Positions 9,452 to 40,668 of a DNA stretch of 64,000 nt are shown piece by piece; position 1 is the first letter of the stretch; each line of letters opens with the position of its first letter. The notes beneath the pieces were generated by a model. That model saw only the letters and a program-made list of their open reading frames with translations. It was not told where the DNA came from and made no database searches. Location: contig OY771555.1 of assembly GCA_963674785.1 (NCBI GenBank), positions 144,851-208,850 of the forward strand, written 5' to 3'. This stretch comes from Caldisericia bacterium. Lineage in GTDB: Bacteria; Caldisericota; Caldisericia; JAAYUI01. Made by a program: the position numbers and the translations under genes.

Positions 9452-10194
9452 AGTTTTTCCTCCAGCTCTTTTATCTCAGATATGATTTTTAGGAGAATTT
9501 TTTTGTCAGTATTACAAAGATCAGCATTTAAAAGGAGGTCGGGTCTCATCATAAGTGTTCTTCTGAGTGCCTGTTCAGTTCTCCACTGCGAGATCTTTTT
9601 GTGATTACCAGATCTGAGGATTTTTGGAACCTCTGATTCCAAAAGTTCTGCAGGTCTAGTGTATTGAGGATATTCGAGAAGATTGTCATCAAAAGATTCA
9701 ACATCAAGTGAATCGTGTTTGCCAAGAATGCCTGGAATCAATCTTGTGACGGCATCAGCCATCGCAAGTGCTGCAAACTCGCCACCTGTCATTATAAAAT
9801 CACCGAGTGATAACCAATCTGTGCAATAGGAGGAGACTCTTTCATCAATTCCTTCGTAGTGCCCACATATAAAAGTAATGGCGGGAGCGTTTGAAAGGTC
9901 TTTTGCAATTTTCTGGTTGAAGGTTTTCCCAGCAGGCGAGGTCAAGACAATCCTGGAATCCTCTGGTAAATCAAGTGAGTTAAGTAACCTGAAAATAGGT
10001 TCAGGTTTCATAAGCATTCCGGCACCACCACCATACGGTGTATCATCAGTTGTATTGTGCCGATCTCCCGAAAAATCCCTGATGTTTATTGCCTGAAATT
10101 CAAGGAGGCCAGCCTCTACTGCCCTCCCCATTATTGAAACTCCACAAGAGTTTTCAAAAAACGACGGGAAGGTCGTTGCAAAGACCAGCCTCAA
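9448..10194 (-). CDS. trmD: tRNA (guanine37-N1)-methyltransferase
   Basis: 248 aa; motifs DDTPYGGGAGM and ICGHYEGIDERV; TGA stop. Confidence 0.9.
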   Translation of the reverse strand: MRLVFATTFPSFFENSCGVSIMGRAVEAGLLEFQAINIRDFSGDRHNTTDDTPYGGGAGMLMKPEPIFRLLNSLDLPEDSRIVLTSPAGKTFNQKIAKDLSNAPAITFICGHYEGIDERVSSYCTDWLSLGDFIMTGGEFAALAMADAVTRLIPGILGKHDSLDVESFDDNLLEYPQYTRPAELLESEVPKILRSGNHKKISQWRTEQALRRTLMMRPDLLLNADLCNTDKKILLKIISEIKELEEKL

Positions 10195-10203
10195 AATTAA
10201 TTC

Positions 10204-10608
10204 CTAACCTTCGGTTATTGATTGAACAATTCCATCTTTCACAACAATCTCTGCTGCGCCAAGCTTTGAATCAAGATTATCTCCTACTTTGATTTCGGTT
10301 GTTCCCTCAAGTAATCCCTGATTGAACAAATCTCCGTCCTTCATTTTGGAAACCTGATTCACTCTTGACTCGAGCTCCTTGATCGTTGCTTCTCTGGAGC
10401 TTTTTTCTCTTTCAAGCTGTTCTTTGACCTGCATAATCTGGTTATAATCCATACTACCAGTTTTAAGCATGAGCTGTTGCTCTGATGATTTCAGCTTATC
10501 AAGTTCAACCTTGATCTCTGAGATCATACTCTGAACTTGTCCTGAGAACTGTTTTCTGAATTCTTCCGTAACCACCGATTTGAGGGTTACTTTTCTGTTA
10601 ATCAACAC
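10204..10608 (-). CDS. YlqD-like coiled-coil protein
   Basis: 134 aa, coiled-coil-rich; sits where ylqD lies in the Firmicutes rpsP-ylqC-ylqD-rimM-trmD-rplS cluster. No PRC-barrel, so not RimM. Confidence 0.5.
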   Translation of the reverse strand: MLINRKVTLKSVVTEEFRKQFSGQVQSMISEIKVELDKLKSSEQQLMLKTGSMDYNQIMQVKEQLEREKSSREATIKELESRVNQVSKMKDGDLFNQGLLEGTTEIKVGDNLDSKLGAAEIVVKDGIVQSITEG

Positions 10609-10851
10609 TTATTCAGAGGCCTCAATAACGTTTACTTCAGCTTTTTTACCATGTTTGTTGGAGACGGCACGGATGAGAACACGGAGAGCGTTAATTGTGC
10701 GACCCTGTTTACCAATGACTTTTCCGAGATCAGCCTGGTCAACTTTGATTTCATATGTGAGGTGCTGTTCGCCAACGAGTTCGTTAATGTCTACCATGTC
10801 TGGGTTATCAACAAGCTGCTTTACGATGTAATTGAGTGTGTCTTTAAACAT
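10609..10851 (-). CDS. KH domain RNA-binding protein (YlqC/UPF0109)
   Basis: 80 aa; GKVIGKQGRTINALR KH motif; immediately downstream of rpsP. Confidence 0.8.
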   Translation of the reverse strand: MFKDTLNYIVKQLVDNPDMVDINELVGEQHLTYEIKVDQADLGKVIGKQGRTINALRVLIRAVSNKHGKKAEVNVIEASE

Positions 10852-24301: not shown

Positions 24302-27300
24302 TTGTTTAATTCAAGATTCAATATAATCAGAAAACTCGGGGAAGGAGGAATGGGTGAGGTGTATCTTGCCCACGATACCAGAACTGGGTCTGATGTTGCT
24401 CTCAAGATCGCAAACCTTGAGAGTTCAACTGCTAGAGAGAGATTCTTACGTGAAATTGAGATTCTTTCAAGTATTTCACATGAAAACATTGTTGACTACA
24501 TAGACAATGGGATCAATGGAAATACTCTCTGGTATGAAATGGAATATATTCCCGGACTCCAGTTAATCCACTGGTTTAAGGGACAAAGCAATATTGATTT
24601 TAAAAGTCTTGCAAAAATCTTTTCTAAGATTGCATCAGCCTTATCTACTCTTCATACAAATGGGATTATTCACCGCGACATAAAACCCGATAATATTTTG
24701 GTTTGTAATGGGGAACCAATAATCGTTGATTTTGGTGTGGCACATCTAATCGATAAGGGAGATCGAGCAAAGCTTACGAGAGCAGGTTCTGTTGTAGGTA
24801 CAATCCAGTATATGTCTCCAGAACAAGTAACGGGAAGCCATATCGATGGGCGCTCAGACCTTCACTCACTTGGTGTGATCATGTATGAATTATTAACTGG
24901 AGAACACCCATACGAAGCAACCACTCTGCCGGGAATGATCTCAAGAATCCTTCAAGAAAGACCAATAAAACCATCAAGTCTAAACCCAGATATACCCGAC
25001 AACCTTGAAATGATAATACTCAAGCTTCTGGAGAAAAACCCTGACTTGAGGTACAAATCAGCCGACGAACTCGAAACAGCTCTTCTGAGGTATTGTAGTG
25101 GAGGGGTTCTGACTGAGGCTGTCAATCTTTCACCACTAAAGACTAATGCTTCAAGAGATATTCCATTCGTTGGAAGAGATAAAGAACTAAATCAGCTCGA
25201 ACTCTTACTTCACTCAGCAATCTCAGGAAGAGGACAGGCTATTGAAATCTTTGGTGAAGATGGTTTAGGAAAATCAAGATTGATTGAGGAATTCAGAGCA
25301 CAGGCTCTTGGACACCTTTCAAAATTCCTATTGTGTTCACCACAAATAGAGGGAAGCTCAAGACTAGCAATATCATCAATTCTCGACCAACTAGCTGATT
25401 ATGAAATCAATTTTGACAACAGGATTATAAAAAAACATCCACACATGATTAGAAGTCTTTCTGCAAAATTTGCAGACTCTGTCGGAATAGAAGAAAAGCC
25501 GCCTAACATCGGAGATTCAAAAGATATCCCAAACGTTGTTGCTGAAATAATAATCAATGCCTTCCCAGAAATCCCATCTATTTATGTTTTTGAAGATGGA
25601 ATTGATAGTCTTACATTTGAAATCGCAACAGAGATTTCAAAAAAAATTGCAGATAGAAAAATAGTTGTGTGTTTTGCGACAGAAAATGAGTTAAGCAAAA
25701 CGATAGCAGAAAAAAAAGGCTTATCAGGGCAAGCAAATTTTTCAAAACTAATTCTTAAACCACTTCAAAAAAATGAAATTGACGCGCTTTCAAGAGCTAT
25801 CCTTGGCAGAGATTTATCCGAACCAGAAATGGATAAGATCTTTGCCAGTTCAAACGGAATGCCAAATGTTGCAATCCAGCTTCTCTCAAATATGCGTGAG
25901 GGTAGTAGGACAGTCTCACTCACATCTCTACCTGAAAATGTAAACAGCATTTATCTTGAAAAAATCTCAAAACTTGGAGGGGAGACAAAACAACTTATTG
26001 AAGTGATGTCTCTTTTGAAGAAACCAATTCCAATCGGTCTATTGAGTCCAATTTCATCTCTTGAAAAAGTGGATTTTGATCTTGCGTTTGAAACTCTTGA
26101 TTCAATTGGATTCATTAAAGAAAAAAACATAGGCAGAGAACTTGTTGTAGAACTTGCAACAGCTGATTTGAAAAAGATAGTCTGTGAAGAACTGAAAAAA
26201 GAAAAAGCAAAAGAATACCATAATCGAATCGCTTCAACTCTTGAAATCTACTACTCAGACACAAAAGATCAGGACATAAAAAAACGTATAGCAGAACACT
26301 ATGTTGAAGCTGAAGAATTTGATAAATCATCAGAGCTATATTTATCAATATTCAGTTATTACAACTCACATGGGAATTCAAAAAATGCAATTGATGCGAT
26401 TAATGAACTTGAAAGAAACTTTGAGAAAATAACCAAAAAATCTCTGATTATAAATTCTGTGTACTATTTCCTTATCAATTTTCCACTAACAAACCAAATG
26501 GAATTGTTTGAAAAATACAAGTTAATTGGTTTGCAACTATTAGAGAAAAATGACCTACCTGGTTACACAGTTTTTTCGTATTATTCTGCAATTGGTGGTG
26601 CATACTTAAGGCAAAGACTTCTACTTGAATCGAGAAAACACATTGATAAAGCAAGAACTCTATACGACCAGGTCGAAGACAGTCGAAAACTGGATTTAAA
26701 TATCCACGAAATTAATCAGGCAATTTTTGAAACAAACATTGAAACGCTCCGTGAGCTACTTGAAGAGCGAAAACGACTGCTTGAAAACACAAATGCTTCG
26801 GAGATTGACTGGATACCTTATTACAATAGTGAAGCAATATATTTCTCTGAAATTGGAAGCCATGCAAACGCCGTAGAAAACTTTAAAAAATCGCTTTCGA
26901 TTGCCAAAAGACTCAACCATAAAAGGCAAGAACTTAGGGCGCTCACAAATCTTGGAACTGCATGCGCTCACGCTGATCTTAATTTCAAAGCGATCGATTA
27001 TTATAAACAGGCTCTAAAACTTGCAAAAGATCTTACTCTTGAAAACATTCATGCCCTAATCTTAAATGACATGGCAAACCTTTATCTAAATGAAGGTAAA
27101 ACCGTAGAATACCGAAATATATTACTTGAATACAAAAGACTGTATGAGGATAAGGAAATCACAAAGGCTTTGATTGATTGGACATATAATTATTCACACC
27201 TCAAGGTTTTAGAAAATGATTTTGATGAAGCAGAAAACATCTTATCAAAAATGAAAAACAGGGTAATTGAGTCAAACAGAAGTTTCTGGCTTCGCGAAGT

Positions 27301-27919
27301 CCTATATTATGAGGCACTGTGCACATTTGATAAAAACAATTTTAGAAGAGCAAAACTTCTGTTTTTACAACTCCTTGACCTTTTCAAGATTGATAAATTA
27401 GAGGACACCTTAACTCAGCTTTTCATATCAAATATTCATCTTGCCCACATATATGTCATCGAAGGCGAACTTGATGAAGCCGAAGAACACTACCAGAAAG
27501 CTTATTCTCTCTGCAGGAGTTACAAACAAGATATTCTTGAAAATAACCTCTTTTTTGCTGAAGCCCATATTGAGTTTGCAAAATCCATAAAAAAAGGCAG
27601 CTTTGGATTCAAAGAGTTTTTTGATGAAAGCTCATGGAGAACCTCATACAACATTTTGATGCAGTTATCCAAAAAGTGTGAACACAAAAAATATACTATG
27701 TCAATTCTTCCAACAAGTGCTACAGAGCTTTTCGCAAAACTCGTTATCCTCAGAATAAAAAACGACAAGAAACTCCGGACAATTGAAAGAAGACAGATTT
27801 TTGAGCAGGCTGTAAATCAAATCGAACTATTATTGAAAAAATATTCAGAACACAATTTTTCTTACAAACGTGATGAAATCATTGAGCTTAATAACGAGCT
27901 TATAATGCTTCTCGAATAG
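24302..27919 (+). CDS. Ser/Thr protein kinase fused to STAND-type NTPase and TPR repeats
   Basis: 1205 aa; kinase motifs GEGGMGEVY, HRDIKPDNIL, DFGVA; P-loop GEDGLGKSRL; C-terminal TPR-like helical repeats. Confidence 0.85.
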   Translation: MFNSRFNIIRKLGEGGMGEVYLAHDTRTGSDVALKIANLESSTARERFLREIEILSSISHENIVDYIDNGINGNTLWYEMEYIPGLQLIHWFKGQSNIDFKSLAKIFSKIASALSTLHTNGIIHRDIKPDNILVCNGEPIIVDFGVAHLIDKGDRAKLTRAGSVVGTIQYMSPEQVTGSHIDGRSDLHSLGVIMYELLTGEHPYEATTLPGMISRILQERPIKPSSLNPDIPDNLEMIILKLLEKNPDLRYKSADELETALLRYCSGGVLTEAVNLSPLKTNASRDIPFVGRDKELNQLELLLHSAISGRGQAIEIFGEDGLGKSRLIEEFRAQALGHLSKFLLCSPQIEGSSRLAISSILDQLADYEINFDNRIIKKHPHMIRSLSAKFADSVGIEEKPPNIGDSKDIPNVVAEIIINAFPEIPSIYVFEDGIDSLTFEIATEISKKIADRKIVVCFATENELSKTIAEKKGLSGQANFSKLILKPLQKNEIDALSRAILGRDLSEPEMDKIFASSNGMPNVAIQLLSNMREGSRTVSLTSLPENVNSIYLEKISKLGGETKQLIEVMSLLKKPIPIGLLSPISSLEKVDFDLAFETLDSIGFIKEKNIGRELVVELATADLKKIVCEELKKEKAKEYHNRIASTLEIYYSDTKDQDIKKRIAEHYVEAEEFDKSSELYLSIFSYYNSHGNSKNAIDAINELERNFEKITKKSLIINSVYYFLINFPLTNQMELFEKYKLIGLQLLEKNDLPGYTVFSYYSAIGGAYLRQRLLLESRKHIDKARTLYDQVEDSRKLDLNIHEINQAIFETNIETLRELLEERKRLLENTNASEIDWIPYYNSEAIYFSEIGSHANAVENFKKSLSIAKRLNHKRQELRALTNLGTACAHADLNFKAIDYYKQALKLAKDLTLENIHALILNDMANLYLNEGKTVEYRNILLEYKRLYEDKEITKALIDWTYNYSHLKVLENDFDEAENILSKMKNRVIESNRSFWLREVLYYEALCTFDKNNFRRAKLLFLQLLDLFKIDKLEDTLTQLFISNIHLAHIYVIEGELDEAEEHYQKAYSLCRSYKQDILENNLFFAEAHIEFAKSIKKGSFGFKEFFDESSWRTSYNILMQLSKKCEHKKYTMSILPTSATELFAKLVILRIKNDKKLRTIERRQIFEQAVNQIELLLKKYSEHNFSYKRDEIIELNNELIMLLE

Positions 27920-28035
27920 ACCATAAATAAAAAAGTAAACATTGATTCTTGAAGAAGCCACATTGTTGTTGTATATTCATGGCACTTATGAAGGAGATTG
28001 TAATGACAACTTACAGATCGCTTTGAGCAAACAAA

Positions 28036-28091
28036 GGCAGATGGTTCATCTGCCAAGCCCAGACGGTCTGTTGCTTCATTTTGACCGTCTG
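28036..28091 (+). promoter_or_regulatory. Structured 5' leader (two hairpins) upstream of the ABC-selD operon
   Basis: GGCAGATG-GTT-CATCTGCC (8-bp stem) and CAGACGGTC-N14-GACCGTCTG (9-bp stem), 27-80 nt upstream of AGGAGG-N7-ATG(28118); no U-tract follows. Function unknown. Confidence 0.3.
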
Positions 28092-28117
28092 AAAACTTAG
28101 ACTTAGGAGGTCATTTT

Positions 28118-29281
28118 ATGAAGCGTTTCGTTACATTTGCACTTATTCTTTTCCTCGCACTTGGAGTCTTTGTCTCGTGTGGTGCTGAAAAAAAGGTGGA
28201 TACAGAACCGACACCAGCAGACGTCACACCAGCAGAACTCCCTCTTTTGAGAGTGGGACACGTCAATCAGGATCATCACCTTGCACTCTACGTCGCAGCA
28301 CTAAAAGGCGAATTCTTTAAGGATCAAGGTGTCTGGATGACAGAGATCAAACCTAAAGAAAGATACACACTCCACACAGAAAATGGAGCTATCGCTGAGG
28401 TTCAACTTGTCAAATCTAAAGGTGGTTCAGAGATGACAAACAACCTCCTTGCAGGTCTTTTTGATATTGGCTTTGGTGGAGTTCCTGCAGTTATGAGTGT
28501 TGTTGATAAAGGAAAAGATGTCAGGATTCTGATGCCTTTGCAAAACGCTGGCGACCAGCTCATCGTAAAAAAAGATATGCCAGTCGAAAACTGGGAAGAG
28601 TTTGTAGAATACGTAAAAAATAACGAAACACAGCTGAAACTCGGATACAAAGCCCCAACTGCAGTTCAATACATCGTTGCTCAAAAGGCATTTACAGAAG
28701 TTGGAATCACACAAACAGAAGACCCAACAAATACAGATGCAATGGTTCTTTGGATCAATCAAAAGGGTCAAAATAACATGACCACAAATCTGGCTGCAGG
28801 TCAAGTTGATGGGTTTGTAGCAAATCAACCAACACCGGCACAAGCGATCATATCTGATGTAGGAAAATTTATCACTGAACTTTCTGTATTGCCACCAGAT
28901 GGAATGTGGAACCATCACCCATGCTGTATGGTTTGCAGCAATGAAAAGGTCAAAACAGAATACCCAGAGGAAACAAAACAGTTCCTTAAACTCATCATGC
29001 TTGCAACAGACCACATAAATGACGACATGGATGATGCAATCGAAATTGCCTACGAATTCCTCGGACAAAAAGAAGGGGTTGAACACTTATCCATTCCAAC
29101 TGTATACTACAACTGCGATGACGATGAAGTTTGGAGAGGTGGAGTTGCAACATGGGCAGTTGTTATGAATGAAATCGGAAAATATACAGGAGAACTAAAG
29201 GATATCAACGATGAAAGAGCAGTTGATCTCTGTGTTGATTTCACATTCCTTCACGAACTTCAAAAGGAGTTAGGAAAATAG
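28118..29281 (+). CDS. ABC transporter substrate-binding lipoprotein (NMT1/SsuA/ThiY-like)
   Basis: 387 aa; lipobox FVSC; periplasmic-binding fold resemblance; unusual WNHHPCCMVCSN Cys/His cluster. Confidence 0.8.
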   Translation: MKRFVTFALILFLALGVFVSCGAEKKVDTEPTPADVTPAELPLLRVGHVNQDHHLALYVAALKGEFFKDQGVWMTEIKPKERYTLHTENGAIAEVQLVKSKGGSEMTNNLLAGLFDIGFGGVPAVMSVVDKGKDVRILMPLQNAGDQLIVKKDMPVENWEEFVEYVKNNETQLKLGYKAPTAVQYIVAQKAFTEVGITQTEDPTNTDAMVLWINQKGQNNMTTNLAAGQVDGFVANQPTPAQAIISDVGKFITELSVLPPDGMWNHHPCCMVCSNEKVKTEYPEETKQFLKLIMLATDHINDDMDDAIEIAYEFLGQKEGVEHLSIPTVYYNCDDDEVWRGGVATWAVVMNEIGKYTGELKDINDERAVDLCVDFTFLHELQKELGK

Positions 29282-29313
29282 ACCGACAAAAGATTTCTAA
29301 AATTTTATGGAGC

Positions 29314-30123
29314 GTGGGTGGAGCAATTGTTCTACCCCTGCTTCTTTTTCTTGTTTGGGATTACAGTGCTGCAAGACTTGGCTCATCAACTCTGCTTCCC
29401 AGAGTATCCGATGTTTTTGATGTGGTTTTGCATCCCACAGAAGACCTAATCAGACAAGGCACCCTGCTCTTCCATGTCTATGTTTCATCGATTCGGGTAT
29501 TGATGGGTTTTGTGATAGGATCGTTGCTTGCCATAGTTCTTGGAATGATAATGGGTTTATCAGACAAAGTAAGGCATTTTGTCACACCATTCATCGAGAT
29601 ACTAAGACCGCTTTGTCCTGTTGCCTGGATTCCCTTCGCGATAATTATCTTCGGTGGAGCGACCCTTTCAAACACATTTGGATACAAGTTTACTGATTCG
29701 ATTCTTGATTATGTTCAGATTGCTCAACTATTCATTATCGCCTGGGGAGCATTCTTTCCGGTATTAATAAACACGATTGATGGCGTCAGTGGTGTCAGAA
29801 AAATATGGGTTGAAACAGCAAAAACGATGAACGCATCCAAACTACAGATTTGGTCAAAGGTGATTCTCCCCGCAAGCTTCCCATCCATTTTGACTGGGCT
29901 TAAGGTTGGACTTGGTATCAGCTGGATGGTTGTAATTGCAGCCGAGATGTTTCCGGGTCCTTCTGCTGGAATCGGGTATCTGATGATGGAGGCATACGCA
30001 CAAACTGAAATCCATATTCTCGCTGCCGGATTAATCACAGTTGGAATCATCGGAGCGCTTCTGAACGCCATTTTAGCGGTTATCCATAAAACCTTTGCGG
30101 GTTGGCAGGCGAAGGAACGATAA
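29314..30123 (+). CDS. ABC transporter permease (NitT/TauT-type)
   Basis: 269 aa; six TM segments with the binding-protein-dependent permease signature region. Confidence 0.85.
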   Translation: MGGAIVLPLLLFLVWDYSAARLGSSTLLPRVSDVFDVVLHPTEDLIRQGTLLFHVYVSSIRVLMGFVIGSLLAIVLGMIMGLSDKVRHFVTPFIEILRPLCPVAWIPFAIIIFGGATLSNTFGYKFTDSILDYVQIAQLFIIAWGAFFPVLINTIDGVSGVRKIWVETAKTMNASKLQIWSKVILPASFPSILTGLKVGLGISWMVVIAAEMFPGPSAGIGYLMMEAYAQTEIHILAAGLITVGIIGALLNAILAVIHKTFAGWQAKER

Positions 30124-30125
30124 AC

Positions 30126-30935
30126 ATGATAAAACTCAGTGCAATATATAAAGATTTTGATAAGCAGGAAGTTTTGAAAAACATCAATTTGAAATTCTTA
30201 CCTGGGGAGTTCAACTGTATTCTTGGGCCAACCGGTTGCGGAAAAACAACTCTTTTGAGAATTATTGCAGGGCTTCTAAAACCAGATTCAGGTGTAGTCA
30301 AAATCGAGAAGCCATCGATTTCAATGATTTTCCAACAGCAAACCCTTTACCCATGGAGAAATGCACTCTCAAATGTTTGTCTTCCACTTGAGTTCAAGGG
30401 ATACTCAAAAAAAGAACGCATCAAAATGGCAATGGCTAGATTAGCCGAGGTTGATGTAGCAGATGCAGCCAAAAAAAAGGTCTTCCAGCTATCTGGTGGA
30501 ATGCAGCAGAGAGTACAGATTGCAAGGGCTTTGGTCTCTAATCCATCAGTACTTCTTGCTGACGAACCATTCGGTTCACTTGATGAAAAAACAAGATACA
30601 AGCTTCAAAAAAAACTCAGAGAGATAACCCTTTCAAACAATACAACAACAGTTTTTGTAACTCATAATATTGAAGAGGCAATTTATCTTGGAGATAGAAT
30701 TATTGTAATTGGAAACAAAGGGGTTCAAGCAGATTTTGATCTTACCACCCCACACCCTAGAGACAGACTTTCGAAATGGTTTACAAGTAAAATTCTTGAA
30801 GTAAGAAATGTTTTTGAAACACTCATCGAAGATGAAGATACAACTGATGGGATTGAAAAAAGCGAAGAACCCGAAGAAAATAACGACCCATTCAAAACAA
30901 TGAAACTCGATGTGACAACAGATGAAAATGAATAA
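30126..30935 (+). CDS. ABC transporter ATP-binding protein
   Basis: Walker A GPTGCGKTT, signature LSGGMQQR, Walker B LLADEP. Start moved to ATG at 30126, right after the permease stop. Confidence 0.9.
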   Translation: MIKLSAIYKDFDKQEVLKNINLKFLPGEFNCILGPTGCGKTTLLRIIAGLLKPDSGVVKIEKPSISMIFQQQTLYPWRNALSNVCLPLEFKGYSKKERIKMAMARLAEVDVADAAKKKVFQLSGGMQQRVQIARALVSNPSVLLADEPFGSLDEKTRYKLQKKLREITLSNNTTTVFVTHNIEEAIYLGDRIIVIGNKGVQADFDLTTPHPRDRLSKWFTSKILEVRNVFETLIEDEDTTDGIEKSEEPEENNDPFKTMKLDVTTDENE

Positions 30936-31956
30936 AGAAGAAGAGTTCAGGCTTACAAAATTTGCCGGATGTGCTGGTTGAGAGAGTAAGTGGGGGCCGG
31001 GAGCTCTCAAGAAGTTACTCAGTGACTTACCTGTTTTTGAGTCACCAGATTTAATCACTCGTGACGTCAATAAAGCTGATGCTGCCGTTTATAAAATCAA
31101 TGATGATTTATACGGTATCTATACAATTGATGTTTTCTCACCAATTGTTGATGACCCTGAAGACTTTGGTGCAATCGCCTTTGCAAATTGTATTTCTGAT
31201 GTTTGCGCAATGGGTGGGACACCAGTTCTTGGGCTAAATGTTTGTATGTTCCCAGCAGCAGCTCCAGTTGAAAAACTCAACCTTATACTTAAGGGTGCAT
31301 CTGAGTCAGCCCAAAAAGAAGGGGTAATAATTGCCGGTGGACACACAACCAAAAATGATGAACTCCACTACGGACTCTCAGTTTATGGGACTGTAAAACC
31401 AGTAGATCTCAGGCTTTCATCAAATGCAAAACCCGGAGACCATATCATCCTTACAAAAGGACTCGGGACGGGTATCCTTTTTGCAGCAAAAGATAGGGCT
31501 GAGGGCGTTAACTGGCAATCAGCAATTGATTCGATGAAACAGACATCCGTTATTGCGTCAAAAATCCTAACCGAATTTGGATGCAGGTGTAGCACCGATA
31601 TTACAGGTTTTGGGTTTGTACCACATCTTCTTGAAGTACTCGAAGAGTCAAGGGTAGCAGCCAAAATTAATCCAGAATCTCTTCCGCTTCTTCCTGGCGT
31701 GATTGACTTTTCTAGATCATTTGCCTGTCCGGTTTTATCAACAAACATGGAACTTGCCGGGGCAAAGTTCGACTCTGGCAAACATGATCCTAAATGGATC
31801 AACATCTGCTTTGACGCCCAAACTTCTGGTGGCTTTATTGCATTTGTTTCAGAAGAAAATGCCGGTAAGTGTTTAGAAAAGCTTATTGATGCAGGATATC
31901 AGGCAGCAGATGTTGGTGAGGTTGCTGAGGGTGAGTCGAAAATTACATTGGTTTAG
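30922..31956 (+). CDS. selD: Selenophosphate synthetase with in-frame UGA (selenocysteine) at 30979-30981
   Basis: Frame of ORF 31210..31956 extended upstream: MKMNKEEEFRLTKFAGCAG[U]ESKWGPGALKKLL...DAAVYKI...SPIVDDPEDFGAIAFANCISDVCAMGG. UGA aligns with E. coli SelD Cys17 and the Lys three residues on with Lys20. Start ATG 30922 (or 30928) overlaps the ATPase stop. Confidence 0.85.
30982..31008 (+). promoter_or_regulatory. Candidate SECIS hairpin immediately 3' of the selD UGA
   Basis: GAGAGU-AAGUGGGGGCCGGGA-GCUCUC: 6-bp lower stem with G-rich apical region starting directly after UGA. Hand-folded, not energy-evaluated. Confidence 0.35.
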
Positions 31957-37577: not shown

Positions 37578-38411
37578 TCATTTTTTTAGATAAACAAAAT
37601 AGTAGATACCGCCAATAAATATAGCCCCACCTACGATATTTCCAAGTGTGACAGGTACGAGGTTATTAACAAGAAAAGTTGACCATGTAAGACTACTTGC
37701 TCCACCACCCAGCCCACTTGCAGCTAAAACCCCAGCATTTCCTTTCAGAAACAATCCCAAAGGTATGAAATACATGTTTGCAACACTGTGCTCAAAACCA
37801 CTCGCAACAAACGCCATTATTGGGAAGTATATCCCAGCAATTTTACTAACTAAATCTTTTCCTGAGATAGCCAACCACACAGCGAGAACAACAAGTATGT
37901 TGCAGGCAACACCTCGTAAAAATGCCTCCAGAAAACCTAGGTTTACCTTTGTGACAGCAATATTCAGAGCATATGTCCCTACCCCATAATCACCCATTTT
38001 GTAAAGACCACCAAAGTAGACAAGGATAACCAAAAAAATAGAACCCACAAAGTTAGCCGAGAAAACGATTGACCAGTTTCTAAATAAACCAGAAAGAGCT
38101 ATTTTACGCTTAAAAAGAGAAATACTCATCAATGAATTACCAGTAAAAAGTTCTGCTCCACCAAGCACAACAAGAACAAGTCCAACACTAAAAACACTAC
38201 CTCCGATAAACTTGCTCAATCCGAGTCCAAAATACCTAGAAACATCATGGGTGACAACAGTATAAAGATGTGATCCAAATCCAATGTATAACCCAGCTAA
38301 AATTCCCGACAAAAAAAGTTTGGAAAAAGAAAGTTTTGATTTATCTTTGCCAATATCAACAAGCTTTTGTGCTACTTCACATGGAGTTAAATAGTTTATA
38401 TTAATACACAC
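37578..38411 (-). CDS. Formate/nitrite transporter (FNT) family channel
   Basis: 277 aa; FNT pattern (LFLSGILAGLYIGFG..., GAELFTGN..., FVASGFEHSVANMYF). Substrate not assignable. Confidence 0.85.
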   Translation of the reverse strand: MCININYLTPCEVAQKLVDIGKDKSKLSFSKLFLSGILAGLYIGFGSHLYTVVTHDVSRYFGLGLSKFIGGSVFSVGLVLVVLGGAELFTGNSLMSISLFKRKIALSGLFRNWSIVFSANFVGSIFLVILVYFGGLYKMGDYGVGTYALNIAVTKVNLGFLEAFLRGVACNILVVLAVWLAISGKDLVSKIAGIYFPIMAFVASGFEHSVANMYFIPLGLFLKGNAGVLAASGLGGGASSLTWSTFLVNNLVPVTLGNIVGGAIFIGGIYYFVYLKK

Positions 38412-38746: not shown

Positions 38747-40280
<1,534 letters not shown>

Positions 40281-40668
40281 CATCTTATATATGTATTATA
40301 TATAAAGTGTTATATTAAATAACTAGGTGCTCTCACACCTATATTGTCATTCTGGAATTGCACCGGATATTGACTTTCATGTGTTAATTGCTATCTAGTT
40401 TTCAAACTACTACATTTCCCAGAAGTGAATCGAGGAAAGTTCAGTTTACCACAAAAGGTGACCACCGTCAAGCAGTTACCCTTTCGGCCAACGAGTAATG
40501 AAATATAACCCAAAAAGTTATAGAGTCAAGGAATGGATATAACATGAATAATATATTGCATTCATGGGACTTTCTTGAGAATCAAATTCAATAATCGAAA
40601 GGTTCCTTTAACCATCATTCGAAAGATTTTCACCAAAACGCTTCACATTCAACGATTAAATCGAATCC

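What the first reader, a model, noticed from the sequence alone, without database searches (positions are those of the whole stretch)
28036..31956. ABC transporter with Cys/His-rich binding lipoprotein, translationally coupled to selD: candidate selenium-compound uptake module
Seen in sequence: binding lipoprotein (28118..29281), permease (29314..30123), ATPase (30126..30935) and selD (30922..31956) are co-directional with 3-nt and overlapping junctions, so one operon is likely. The binding protein belongs to the NMT1/SsuA/ThiY-like fold but carries HHPCCMVC, not a motif I associate with that family. Inference: tight coupling to the enzyme that consumes selenide suggests the transporter delivers a selenium species, or a sulfur analogue. 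No such role is established for this transporter type as far as I know.
Basis: inference. Interest (0 to 1): 0.7.

Follow-up and report, generated by a model that had tools for sequence, protein, structure and literature searches.

The report
Candidate selenium uptake ABC transporter
A rare three-gene ABC import system with an unusual double-cysteine binding protein sits directly in front of, or inside, the selenocysteine-machinery genes in about thirty uncultured anaerobic bacteria, making it a concrete, testable candidate for the dedicated bacterial selenium transporter that three reviews or papers of 2022-2026 say has not been identified.

Summary
Window 28118-31956 encodes a lipoprotein binding protein, a permease, an ATPase and selD, all co-directional. 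ATPase and selD overlap by 14 nt. selD carries an in-frame TGA (selenocysteine) that is conserved in relatives.

The binding-protein family is rare: 70 species genomes, all MAGs. It always carries G-H-x-x-x-D-H and a nearly invariant H-P-C-C. In 20 of 70 genome loci, plus 9 loci from metagenome and read-archive contigs, selA, selB, selD or tRNA-Sec lie within 10 kb. They occur in at least seven gene orders, including SBP-permease-ATPase-selA-selB-selD. A conservative null expects about 1 of 70.

The closest named relatives are SaoX/SaoP/SaoA of the uncharacterised SAO system, but every curated cut-off is missed. The CC pair aligns with the CC of SaoX and with the iron-binding CCCFC of THI5, so the motif is not foreign to the fold.

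Most likely this is a selenium-supply importer (confidence about 0.55). The selenium species and the binding chemistry are unknown. A thiophilic-metal substrate is the main rival.

Bonus: a conserved structured leader at 27991-28116. Its short uORF ends in UGA and pairs with the transporter's Shine-Dalgarno sequence, and a SECIS-spaced hairpin follows the UGA.

The parts
27949..27977 (+). Sigma-70-like promoter (TTGAAG-17-TATATT) in front of the leader
   Evidence: Consensus scan. The TTGA and TAT..T boxes are also seen in the orthologous leaders. This is a consensus match only.
27991..28116 (+). Conserved structured 5' leader RNA of the transporter operon (three helices)
   Evidence: Eight distinct orthologous leaders were aligned (A4). 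RNAalifold gives 25 pairs. 92.4% of cells are paired against 34-52% in the slid controls. Thirteen pairs carry compensatory double changes and 0 of 500 shuffles reach the observed values. The covariance model R1 scores 121 bits here. There is no Rfam match.
28003..28026 (+). Leader uORF: ATG..TGA, encoding MTTYRSL*, preceded by AAGGAG at 27991-27996
   Evidence: Read from the sequence. All eight orthologous leaders have a 6-10-codon uORF ending in [R/K/G]-[S/L]-L-UGA. 'CUUUGA' is invariant.
28015..28023 (+). Anti-Shine-Dalgarno strand, formed by the last three sense codons of the uORF (AGAUCGCUU)
   Evidence: Helix 1: 8 pairs, 97% of cells paired, 2 pairs with double changes.
28036..28054 (+). 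Leader hairpin 1 (GGCAGAUG-GUU-CAUCUGCC). It starts 9 nt after the uORF UGA, so it is SECIS-like in position.
   Evidence: Helix 2: 6 of 8 pairs show compensatory changes. The GUU loop is invariant. The spacing matches that of the hairpin after the true Sec codon of selD.
28060..28091 (+). Leader hairpin 2 (CAGACGGUC-N14-GACCGUCUG). Its 5' arm can alternatively pair with the end of the uORF.
   Evidence: Helix 3: 5 of 9 pairs show compensatory changes. The alternative pairing was read from the aligned sequences.
28105..28113 (+). Shine-Dalgarno region of the binding-protein gene (AGGAGGUCA), the 3' strand of helix 1
   Evidence: AGGAGG is invariant in all leaders.
28118..29281 (+). Substrate-binding lipoprotein (387 aa), NMT1_2 / type II periplasmic-binding fold
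   Evidence: The AlphaFold2 model has pLDDT 89.8. The best fold matches are the C-terminal regulatory domain of the CmpBCD ATPase subunit, NrtA/CmpA, 3un6, TauA, SsuA and Thi5. The family alignment is A1.
28256..28279 (+). G47-H-V-N-Q-D52-H53-H54 motif in the loop between strand 1 and helix 1. Elsewhere in the family it reads GHVGHDH[QH].
   Evidence: G47, D52 and H53 are invariant and H48 is at least 90% conserved. It corresponds to 'GYNNCDHM' of SaoX (the text was machine-read).
28913..28936 (+). H266-H-P-C-C-M-V-C273. The conserved core is H267-P268-C269-C270, at the start of strand 268-274.
   Evidence: P268, C269 and C270 are invariant in A1. PCC is kept in all but one of about 145 loci and H267 in all but six. 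It aligns with 'GCCCFC' of THI5/THI13 and with 'WGxCCC' of SaoX.
29314..30123 (+). ABC permease (269 aa), NitT/TauT type. The closest named family is SaoP.
   Evidence: BPD_transp_1. SaoP NF040733 scores 155.9 bits against a cut-off of 295, the best NCBIfam hit. No Cys or Sec is conserved at the gate.
30126..30935 (+). ABC ATPase (269 aa) with an acidic C-terminal tail. Its stop codon lies inside the start of selD.
   Evidence: ABC_tran. SaoA scores 179 bits against a cut-off of 360, with TauB and PotA similar.
30922..31956 (+). selD, selenide water dikinase, a selenoprotein form
   Evidence: TIGR00476 at 267.7 bits against a cut-off of 125. Translation.
30979..30981 (+). In-frame TGA, the selenocysteine codon of SelD (GCAG-U-ESK)
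   Evidence: It is conserved in L001, L002, L071, L150 and L155, and in L008.
30991..31009 (+). Candidate SECIS hairpin of selD (UGGGGGC-CGGGA-GCUCUCA), 9 nt after the UGA
   Evidence: Folded in six orthologues. It overlaps conserved coding sequence, so covariation cannot be judged.

Best explanation
This is a binding-protein-dependent ABC importer of the nitrate/sulfonate/taurine (NitT/TauT) structural type. Its physiological job is to bring a selenium species into the cell for SelD.

**Shown**
- The four genes form one compact unit with translational overlap between the ATPase gene and selD.
- SelD is itself a selenoprotein.
- The same transporter is embedded in or abuts selA-selB-selC-selD clusters in many unrelated gene orders.

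**Inferred**
1. The membrane-anchored binding protein captures the selenium compound. The site is built from the His/Asp loop (H48, D52, H53), helix-N-terminal glycines (G102, G103), K178, N236 and the H267-P-C269-C270 strand.
2. It docks on a permease homodimer.
3. ATP hydrolysis drives import.
4. Selenide, either direct or after reduction, is handed to SelD, which makes selenophosphate for Sec-tRNA synthesis. In some lineages an adjacent double-cubane reductase/activase module may carry out the reduction.

The selenium species is unknown. Small anions such as hydrogen selenide, selenite or selenosulfur species fit the fold and the anion-type porins encoded next to the transporter in diderm hosts.

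The role of the two adjacent cysteines is also unknown. Three options remain open: soft-ligand recognition, a transient S-Se bond, or holding a metal that bridges selenide.

In the Caldisericia clade, translation of the binding-protein gene is controlled by a leader. The end of the leader's uORF pairs with the Shine-Dalgarno sequence.
For: **Operon anatomy.**

**Family identity.**

**Rarity and sharp definition of the SBP family.** It has invariant PCC and DH motifs.

**Sel-gene linkage.**
- 20 of 70 genome loci.
- L071, L074, L086, L090, L097, L105, L114, L118 and L150. L097 duplicates L069.
- SelA, SelB and SelD identities were verified above the curated cut-offs: 540, 324 and 338 bits.
- tRNA-Sec lies in 14 of the linked loci and in none of the 50 unlinked genome loci.

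**At least seven architectures.**
1. SBP-P-A-selD (Caldisericia).
2. SBP-P-A-selD-selC (Sedimentisphaerales/Pirellulales).
3. SBP-P-A-selA-selB-x-selD.
4. SBP-P-A-selA.
5. selD..selB/selA divergent from porin-SBP-P-A.
6. selA-selB-selD-porin-SBP.
7. An arrangement on the opposite strand.

**Distribution and statistics.** Linked loci are scattered over the SBP tree. The null expectation is about 1.1 of 70, P about 7e-19.

**Whole-genome check.** The L003 genome very probably has a Sec-SelD elsewhere, judged by matching contig length.

**Outer-membrane channels.** Alginate_exp-, DcaP-like (weak Pfam match) and OprO/P-type channels are encoded beside the transporter.

**Double-cubane reductases.** NF040772 proteins lie beside it in 12 loci. 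Haft's preprint reports that this family is found almost only in SelD-positive genomes.

**Literature.** No dedicated selenium transporter is known (PMC9312934, PMC11097638, PMC13188914).
Against: - About 70% of the genome loci have no sel gene within the DNA available. This includes all of about 25 Nitrospirota-clade loci, whose conserved neighbours are an FtrD-like membrane iron-sulfur protein, a thiol-disulfide redoxin and cytochrome c assembly-like proteins.
- Most linked loci are Planctomycetota, so the events are not independent.
- All genomes are MAGs, so some taxon labels and bins may be wrong.
- The HPCC/DH signature is shared with shorter SsuA_fam-type proteins and with circularly permuted archaeal relatives. 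Those come from organisms not known, from my own knowledge, to use Sec.
- The homologous CCCFC of THI5 is reported to bind iron (PMC10512395).
- SelD-positive genomes vastly outnumber transporter-positive ones, so the system is an accessory at best.
- There are no ligand, expression or uptake data.
Confidence: 0.55

Rival explanations
1. It imports a thiophilic metal or a metal-containing complex, such as Fe, Zn, Ni, or thio-molybdate/tungstate or organometallic species. The His/Asp/Cys-Cys site would be a metal site, and the nearness to sel genes would reflect shared anaerobic physiology or the needs of metallo-selenoenzymes.
For: - The CC pair aligns with the iron-binding CCCFC of THI5.
- The closest named relatives, SaoX/SaoP/SaoA, are proposed by their describers to carry metal or organometallic substrates.
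- The conserved G-H-x-G-H-D-H plus H-P-C-C looks like a transition-metal ligand set.
- The Nitrospirota clade has an FtrD-like membrane iron-sulfur protein next door.
- 3un6, a top fold match, was crystallised with zinc.
Against: - The linked genes are the Sec-synthesis genes themselves (selA, selB, selC, selD), not selenoenzyme or metallochaperone genes.
- From my own knowledge of characterised systems, NitT/TauT-type permeases carry anions and small organics, and metal-ion ABC importers use other binding-protein and permease families.
- The associated porins include an OprO/P-type (phosphate-selective porin family) channel.
Confidence: 0.2
2. It imports a sulfur compound, such as a sulfonate, thiosulfate, polysulfide or sulfide. 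Selenium analogues would be at most side substrates.
For: - Weak similarity to SsuA_fam (59.8 bits) and to TauC/SsuC/TauB.
- A wider HPCC-bearing group passes the SsuA_fam cut-off.
- The archaeal HPCC relatives sit beside a pyridine-nucleotide-disulfide oxidoreductase.
Against: - The SBP scores far below the SsuA cut-off of 163.5.
- No desulfonation or sulfur-assimilation genes recur next to it in the neighbour clustering.
- A sulfur role does not explain the repeated insertion into Sec-machinery clusters.
Confidence: 0.12
3. It imports an organic cofactor precursor, like the ThiY, RibY or PqqT relatives of the same fold, and the link to selD is incidental.
For: Fold matches to ThiY, the thiamine-binding SBP, PqqT and Thi5.
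Against: - No TPP or other known riboswitch in the leader.
- No thiamine or cofactor genes recur nearby.
- The sel linkage is far above chance.
Confidence: 0.05
4. The sel linkage is inherited synteny or hitch-hiking without functional meaning, and the function is unrelated.
For: Most linked loci come from one phylum, Planctomycetota. MAG-based data are noisy.
Against: - At least seven different gene orders and both orientations occur.
- Linkage recurs in Caldisericota, in several Planctomycetota orders, in PVC-labelled bins and in Anaerolineales-labelled bins.
- In the window, the ATPase gene and selD overlap translationally.
Confidence: 0.08

Closest known systems
[quoted passage not shown]
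   Same: - SaoP is the best NCBIfam hit of the permease, and SaoA is among the best hits of the ATPase.
- The SBP shares the lipoprotein nature of SaoX, the D-H loop motif and the CC pair at the same strand.
- Both systems recur next to double-cubane reductases and in selenium-using anaerobes.
- Both are experimentally uncharacterised.
   Different: - All three proteins score far below the curated equivalog cut-offs: 31 of 300, 156 of 295 and 179 of 360.
- There is no Sec or Cys at the permease gate.
- There is no second CC, where SaoX has 'CCDP' and this family has 'NQP'.
- None of SaoB, SaoC, SaoD, SaoE, SaoL or SaoT is encoded in the window or in the neighbour clusters.
- This family is linked to the Sec-synthesis genes themselves.
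NrtABCD/CmpABCD and SsuABC/TauABC (NitT/TauT family ABC importers for nitrate, bicarbonate, sulfonates and taurine)
   Same: They share the same binding-protein fold, permease family and ATPase family. The mode of action is the same: SBP, permease dimer and ATPase dimer.
   Different: Every curated cut-off is missed. The His/Asp loop and the HPCC strand are absent from the classical members; for example, 3qsl has 'MPAGC' at that place. The genomic context also differs.
THI5/NMT1 HMP-P synthase
   Same: Same fold. The CCCFC motif, reported as iron-binding and essential (PMC10512395), aligns with HPCC[C].
   Different: THI5 is a cytosolic single-turnover enzyme. The window protein is a secreted lipoprotein encoded with a permease and an ATPase. 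Whether the THI5 catalytic Lys and His are kept was not tested.
YedE/YedF, until now the main predicted selenium transporter (Lin et al. 2015, PMC5322559)
   Same: Both were proposed from co-occurrence or neighbourhood with SelD, and both lack experimental proof.
   Different: YedE belongs to an unrelated protein family, a ten-helix membrane protein. It is not an ABC system and has no binding protein.
SECIS-like element in the E. coli selAB 5' UTR, and leader-peptide translational attenuators (for the leader only)
   Same: In both, a hairpin in the 5' leader of a selenium-metabolism operon lies close to a Shine-Dalgarno sequence (PMC13449736). Here a uORF pairs with the downstream SD, which resembles ermC/cat-type attenuators as I recall them from my own knowledge.
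   Different: Here the hairpin follows a translated uORF that ends in UGA, at the spacing seen at a true Sec codon. SelB binding was not tested.

Membership tests
Binding-protein-dependent ABC importer, NitT/TauT type | Binding protein with the NMT1/SsuA-like type II fold | tested here: met
   Pfam NMT1_2 at 90.8 bits against a cut-off of 24.7. The AF2 model has pLDDT 89.8 and Foldseek matches to NrtA, CmpA, TauA and SsuA with E values of 1e-13 to 1e-17.
Binding-protein-dependent ABC importer, NitT/TauT type | BPD_transp_1 permease and ABC_tran ATPase encoded alongside the binding protein | tested here: met
   The order SBP-permease-ATPase is kept in nearly all of about 150 loci.
SAO system transporter (SaoX, SaoP, SaoA) | NCBIfam equivalog scores at or above the cut-offs | tested here: not met
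   SaoX 31.2 of 300, SaoP 155.9 of 295, SaoA 179.3 of 360.
SAO system transporter (SaoX, SaoP, SaoA) | [quoted passage not shown] | tested here: not met
   In the alignment of 65 permeases no Cys column is conserved, no stop codon is in frame, and the region expected to align with the SaoP gate reads AAE. The gate position was estimated from profile coordinates, not from a direct alignment with SaoP.
SAO system transporter (SaoX, SaoP, SaoA) | CC pair in the binding cleft of the lipoprotein SBP | tested here: met
   C269-C270 is kept in all of about 145 loci with this region. Correspondence with the SaoX 'WGxCCC' comes from the machine-read supplementary alignment. The cleft location is inferred from topology and from the describers' model of SaoX, not measured here.
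SAO system transporter (SaoX, SaoP, SaoA) | Nine-gene neighbourhood including SaoB, C, D, E, L and T | tested here: not met
   No such genes lie in the window, and none appear among the recurrent neighbour clusters.
SsuA aliphatic sulfonate-binding protein (TIGR01728) | Score at or above the subfamily cut-off | tested here: not met
   59.8 bits against a cut-off of 163.5.
SelD selenide, water dikinase (TIGR00476) | Equivalog score, AIRS and AIRS_C domains, and Cys/Sec with Lys in the N-terminal loop | tested here: met
   267.7 bits against a cut-off of 125. Pfam AIRS and AIRS_C. The loop reads GCAG-U-ESK, with a conserved TGA.
THI5/NMT1 HMP-P synthase | Cytosolic enzyme with catalytic Lys and His plus CCCFC | tested here: inconclusive
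   Only the Cys motif aligns, at E of about 4e-4 over about 45 residues. The window protein has a lipoprotein signal and an ABC operon context. The catalytic residues were not examined.
Bacterial SECIS element (leader hairpin 1) | Hairpin at a fixed short distance 3' of a UGA, with G/U in the apical loop, bound by SelB | tested here: inconclusive
   The spacing (9 nt) and stem length match the selD hairpin of the same genomes, and the loop GUU is invariant. SelB binding and Sec insertion cannot be tested with these tools.
Known riboswitch or leader families (Rfam 15) | Match to a curated covariance model | tested here: not met
   There is no match at gathering score. At E up to 1 there is only a chance snoRNA hit.

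The most novel reading that the evidence does not exclude
The operon encodes the first dedicated, high-affinity selenium importer of prokaryotes. Its binding protein recognises selenium through the adjacent cysteine pair, either by a transient S-Se bond or by a metal-bridged selenide.

In Caldisericia its synthesis would be set by a leader peptide whose UGA, followed by a SECIS-spaced hairpin, reads the availability of Sec-tRNA(Sec). That would be classical attenuation logic applied to the 21st amino acid. Ribosome dwell time at the UGA would free or re-sequester the Shine-Dalgarno sequence.

The related SAO transporter and the double-cubane reductases would then also belong to selenium acquisition.
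Probability: 0.2. Interest if true: 0.9.

Novelty: new variant of a known kind. Interest (0 to 1): 0.75.

Why it matters
How bacteria and archaea acquire trace selenium specifically is an open question, especially in sulfide-rich anoxic habitats where sulfur outnumbers it by orders of magnitude. Reviews from 2022 and 2026 and a 2024 experimental study all state that no dedicated or high-affinity selenium transporter has been identified.

This family offers a specific three-protein candidate with a defined motif to mutate. It has a clear assay: selenium uptake or selenoprotein activity at low selenium in a heterologous host. It also has natural partners, namely SelD, double-cubane reductases and porins.

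If confirmed, it would do several things:
- Give a marker gene for selenium scavenging in metagenomes.
- Suggest a function for the enigmatic SAO transporter and for double-cubane reductases.
- Provide a tool for engineering selenoprotein production.

The leader RNA would add a possible selenium-responsive regulatory element.

Tried and rejected
- **Known RNA families in the leader.** Rfam found none.
- **More copies of the leader.** The covariance model R1 finds only the one copy in front of each Caldisericia-type transporter. It finds none elsewhere in the window, none in 140 other loci, and none near the stand-alone selD of L155.
- **Sec or Cys at the permease gate, as in SaoP.** Absent.
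- **Sec-containing variants of the binding protein.** There is no in-frame stop at the CC positions in about 150 loci.
- **Motif differences between sel-linked and unlinked binding proteins.** None.
- **+1 frameshift at 'CUU UGA', as in prfB.** The +1 frame is not conserved (read from the sequences). Read-through in frame stays open to the end of hairpin 2 in five leaders but stops earlier in three. This gives no support from coding conservation.
- **Checking for selD in the complete Phycisphaeraceae chromosomes (L033, L035).** I tried matching contig lengths in a SelD search. Only 120 of more than 6,800 hits are listed, so the result was uninformative.
- **The SaoX supplementary alignment.** It is machine-read and partly corrupted. 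I used only the clearly repeated motifs.
- **Model coordinates.** None are available, so distances between the His, Asp and Cys residues could not be measured.

Full report
**1. Observation**

Window 28118-31956 carries four co-directional genes:
- a 387-aa lipoprotein (signal peptide, lipobox Cys21);
- a 269-aa permease (29314-30123);
- a 269-aa ABC ATPase (30126-30935);
- selD (30922-31956).

The gaps are 32 nt, then 2 nt, then a 14-nt overlap.

selD contains an in-frame TGA at codon 20 (30979-30981), at the position of the catalytic Cys/Sec. The same TGA is kept in all Caldisericia-type orthologues and in L008, while most Planctomycetota SelD proteins have Cys there. The organism therefore decodes selenocysteine.

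Pfam and NCBIfam confirm NMT1_2, BPD_transp_1, ABC_tran and SelD, the last at 267.7 bits against a cut-off of 125.

The organism belongs to Caldisericia. The best SBP relative is 93% identical and comes from a Caldisericia MAG. The window's SelD fragment lies on a public contig of 2.23 Mb.

The surroundings are unrelated housekeeping or unknown genes. Upstream lie an H+-pyrophosphatase, a phosphofructokinase and a Ser/Thr kinase-TPR protein. Downstream lie convergent unknown proteins.

**2. The binding protein and its motif**

The family is rare and sharply delimited:
- about 32 full-length clusters in a 5.8-billion-protein collection;
- 70 species-representative genomes, all MAGs;
- 79 metagenome loci;
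- about 100 representatives at E up to 1e-30 among 1.84 billion proteins.

Hosts are Caldisericota, many Planctomycetota, Nitrospirota, Verrucomicrobiota, Omnitrophota, Elusimicrobiota, Lentisphaerota and a few others.

Across about 145 loci, G-H-V-[GN]-[HQ]-D-H-[QH] (residues 47-54) is nearly invariant. P268-C269-C270 is kept in all but one locus, and H267 in all but six.

The AlphaFold2 model is confident (pLDDT 89.8). It matches the nitrate-, bicarbonate-, taurine- and sulfonate-binding proteins, 3un6 and Thi5.

In the model's topology, the His/Asp motif sits in the loop from strand 1 to helix 1. G102-G103 sit at a helix N-terminus. K178 follows a C-lobe strand. HPCC opens strand 268-274, which returns from the hinge. 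In this fold, these are the usual ligand-contacting positions.

The motif is not foreign to the fold:
- A profile search of solved structures aligns HPCC with the 'GCCCFC' of THI5/THI13. That motif is described as an essential iron-binding motif (PMC10512395).
- The supplementary alignment of SaoX shows 'GYNNCDHM' where this family has 'GHVGHDHQ'. It shows 'WGxCCC' where this family has 'W..HPCC' (machine-read text). The describers place the SaoX CC pair in the binding cleft.
- Shorter HPCC-bearing proteins that pass the SsuA_fam cut-off also exist, as do circularly permuted archaeal versions.

**3. What the neighbours say**

The order SBP-permease-ATPase is kept almost everywhere.

In 20 of the 70 genome loci, selA, selB or selD lie within 10 kb. 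Nine further loci from metagenome and read-archive contigs show the same. Identities were verified above the curated cut-offs: selA 540 bits, selB 324 bits, selD 338 bits. ARAGORN finds tRNA-Sec in 14 of these loci and in none of the 50 unlinked genome loci.

Gene orders differ widely:
- transporter-selD (Caldisericia);
- transporter-selD-selC-NapH-like (Sedimentisphaerales, Pirellulales);
- transporter-(selC)-selA-selB-unknown-selD (several Planctomycetota);
- transporter-selA;
- selD-selC ... selB-selA divergent from porin-transporter;
- selA-selB-selD-x-porin-transporter;
- an arrangement on the opposite strand.

Linked loci are scattered over most clades of a neighbour-joining tree of 142 binding proteins.

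I used a generous null: three separate sel loci per genome, genomes of 3 Mb, and every genome selenium-using. About 1.1 linked loci would then be expected among 70, against 20 observed. That gives a Poisson P of about 7e-19, without correction for relatedness.

One whole-genome check was possible. The Caldisericia genome of L003 has no selD beside its transporter. A SelD 61% identical to the window's lies on a contig of exactly the same length, 2,171,894 bp, so it is very probably the same contig. That SelD also has the Sec codon.

Other recurrent neighbours:
- Outer-membrane channels sit immediately beside the transporter in diderm hosts. They are Alginate_exp-type in 26 genome loci and DcaP-like in 7 (a weak Pfam match, E 7.5e-5, below the gathering score). 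An OprO/P-type porin occurs in Phycisphaeraceae, and an unnamed protein that looks like a beta-barrel occurs in Sedimentisphaerales.
- A module of double-cubane reductase (NF040772, 405 and 416 bits against a cut-off of 350), paralogues, activase and a SAM methyltransferase occurs in 12 loci. Four of these also carry sel genes.
- In the Nitrospirota clade, the neighbours are an FtrD-like membrane iron-sulfur protein, an unknown protein, a TlpA-like redoxin and CcsA/ResB-like proteins, with no sel genes.

**4. Mechanism**

The best-supported reading is a selenium-supply importer.

Shown: the operon anatomy, the family identities, the conserved motif and the recurrent physical linkage to the whole Sec-synthesis gene set.

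Inferred from the family: the binding protein delivers a small solute to a permease dimer, and the ATPase dimer powers import.

Inferred from context: the solute is a selenium species that ends as selenide for SelD. The 14-nt overlap of the ATPase gene with selD would then co-express the consumer with the importer.

Fold relatives bind small anions, and the associated porins include an OprO/P-type (phosphate-selective porin family) channel. This favours hydrogen selenide, selenite or a selenosulfur anion. The adjacent double-cubane reductase modules suggest that some lineages must reduce the imported species. Haft's preprint reports that 955 of 970 such reductases lie in SelD-positive assemblies and raises a role in processing selenium compounds.

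What the cysteine pair does is open. Three chemistries fit:
- soft-ligand discrimination of Se from S;
- a transient Cys-S-Se-S-Cys adduct;
- a bound metal that bridges selenide, as iron does at the homologous THI5 motif and calcium does in CmpA.

I put the selenium-importer reading at about 0.55.

**5. Rivals**

- *Thiophilic metal or organometallic substrate, about 0.2.* It is supported by the ligand-like His/Asp/Cys set, the THI5 iron motif, the SAO hypothesis and the FtrD-like neighbour in Nitrospirota. It does not explain why the partners are the Sec-synthesis genes rather than metalloenzyme or chaperone genes.
- *Sulfur-compound importer, about 0.12.* It fits the wider HPCC group, including archaea not known to use Sec. 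The SBP scores far below the SsuA cut-off, and no sulfur-assimilation genes recur nearby.
- *Cofactor-precursor import, about 0.05, and meaningless synteny, about 0.08.* Both are weak for the reasons given in the rival entries.

**6. Comparison with what is known**

The system works like a NitT/TauT-type ABC importer and meets that family's structural features.

It is closest to SaoX/SaoP/SaoA but is not a member. All equivalog cut-offs are missed, the permease lacks the gating Sec/Cys, and the other six SAO genes are absent.

It is unrelated to YedE/YedF, the earlier in-silico candidate for selenium transport.

I found no paper or curated family that names this transporter. Public annotation calls it only 'ABC transporter substrate-binding protein'.

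**7. An additional finding: the leader**

The 126 nt before the binding-protein gene (27991-28116) are conserved in all eight distinct Caldisericia-type loci. This includes three loci that lack selD downstream.

Three helices are supported by covariation. 92.4% of cells are paired against at most 52% in the slid controls. Thirteen pairs show compensatory double changes, and 0 of 500 shuffles reach the observed values.

Helix 1 pairs the last three sense codons of a short uORF with the Shine-Dalgarno sequence of the transporter gene. The uORF runs 28003-28026 and encodes MTTYRSL-stop. It is present in all eight leaders, always ends in L-UGA, and 'CUUUGA' is invariant. A ribosome sitting at the uORF stop must therefore expose the Shine-Dalgarno sequence.

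Hairpin 1 (28036-28054, invariant GUU loop) begins 9 nt after the UGA. The hairpin after the true Sec codon of selD in the same genomes has the same spacing.

In E. coli, a SECIS-like hairpin in the selAB leader binds SelB and represses translation (summarised in PMC13449736).

A selenium-sensing attenuator that reads Sec-tRNA availability at the uORF UGA is thus conceivable, but it is unproven. Read-through ORFs are not conserved in length. The element is not in Rfam and occurs only in front of this transporter.

**8. Verdict**

This is a new variant of a known kind of system: an ABC importer with a predicted new substrate class. It bears on a recognised open question, because no dedicated selenium transporter is known.

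The main weaknesses are the 70% of loci without visible linkage, the reliance on MAGs, the wider distribution of the CC motif, and the complete absence of biochemical data.

Noticed in passing
window 27991-28116 (uORF 28003-28026; hairpins 28036-28054 and 28060-28091; SD 28105-28113): A conserved structured leader with covariation-supported helices. The 3' end of a 7-codon uORF, which always ends in L-UGA, pairs with the transporter's Shine-Dalgarno sequence. A hairpin with an invariant GUU loop follows the UGA at the same 9-nt spacing as the hairpin after the Sec codon of selD. It is not in Rfam. It may be a translational attenuator, possibly selenium-responsive.
   Followed up: partly
L041:3901-8113, L016:15600-20809; also L014, L017, L019, L085, L088, L102, L106, L114, L118, L127: A module of double-cubane-cluster reductase (NF040772, above cut-off), two paralogues, an activase and a SAM methyltransferase lies next to the transporter in 12 loci. 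This echoes the published link of double-cubane proteins with SelD and with the SAO locus.
   Followed up: partly
L069:15427-17049, L028:5738-7324 and about 12 other loci: SelD of Planctomycetota and relatives is a fusion protein. A Cys-rich N-terminal segment (GHCICDPKxPCPCD...C.CAGE, no Pfam match) is followed by SelD and a C-terminal AhpD/CMD domain. More than 6,800 homologues exist in the protein collection.
   Followed up: no
L069:13977-15245, L023:16553-17725, L025:12066-14718, L028:364-1638 and 9532-10674(-), L041:1-2503: A family of about 380-420-aa secreted proteins without any Pfam or NCBIfam match. All end in ...G-x-[FLM]-[EKR]-[YF]-G-COOH. They recur between selB and selD or near the transporter.
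   Followed up: no
L028:7756-8637, L041:14664-15545, L022, L023, L045, L074, L114: A NapH/MauN-like membrane ferredoxin (Fer4_5) recurs next to selD and tRNA-Sec in the transporter loci. It could feed electrons to a selenium-reducing step.
   Followed up: no
P0033-P0035; L157:8001-11840: Archaeal (Archaeoglobus-labelled) relatives of the binding protein are circularly permuted. The HPCC half comes first and the 'GYLTADLHQLALYVA' half second. They sit in SBP-permease-ATPase operons, convergent with a pyridine-nucleotide-disulfide oxidoreductase.
   Followed up: partly
L062:7402-9986, L040, L054, L063, L096, L119 (Nitrospirota clade): In Nitrospirota, the transporter is never near sel genes. It is preceded by a 457-aa protein with a C-terminal FtrD-like membrane iron-sulfur domain and by an unknown 418-aa protein. 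A TlpA-like redoxin and CcsA/ResB-like genes lie nearby. This clade may have a different role or substrate.
   Followed up: partly
P0338, P0351, P0352, P0359: A diverged sub-branch of the family has lost both the cysteine pair ('DHPGTV', 'GRPGVV') and most of the His motif. These proteins could serve as natural negative controls for the motif's role.
   Followed up: no
window 38747-40282 (-) and 37578-38411 (-): A 16S rRNA gene stands without any 23S or 5S gene in the 64-kb window, so the rRNA genes are unlinked. Immediately downstream lies a formate/nitrite-transporter-family channel. From my own knowledge, some members of that family conduct hydrosulfide.
   Followed up: no
window 24302-27919 (+): A 1205-aa Ser/Thr protein kinase fused to an AAA_16 ATPase and TPR repeats lies directly upstream of the leader. 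This synteny (H+-PPase, PFK, kinase, transporter) is kept in L001 and L003, and partly in L002, where two other ORFs separate the kinase from the transporter.
   Followed up: no
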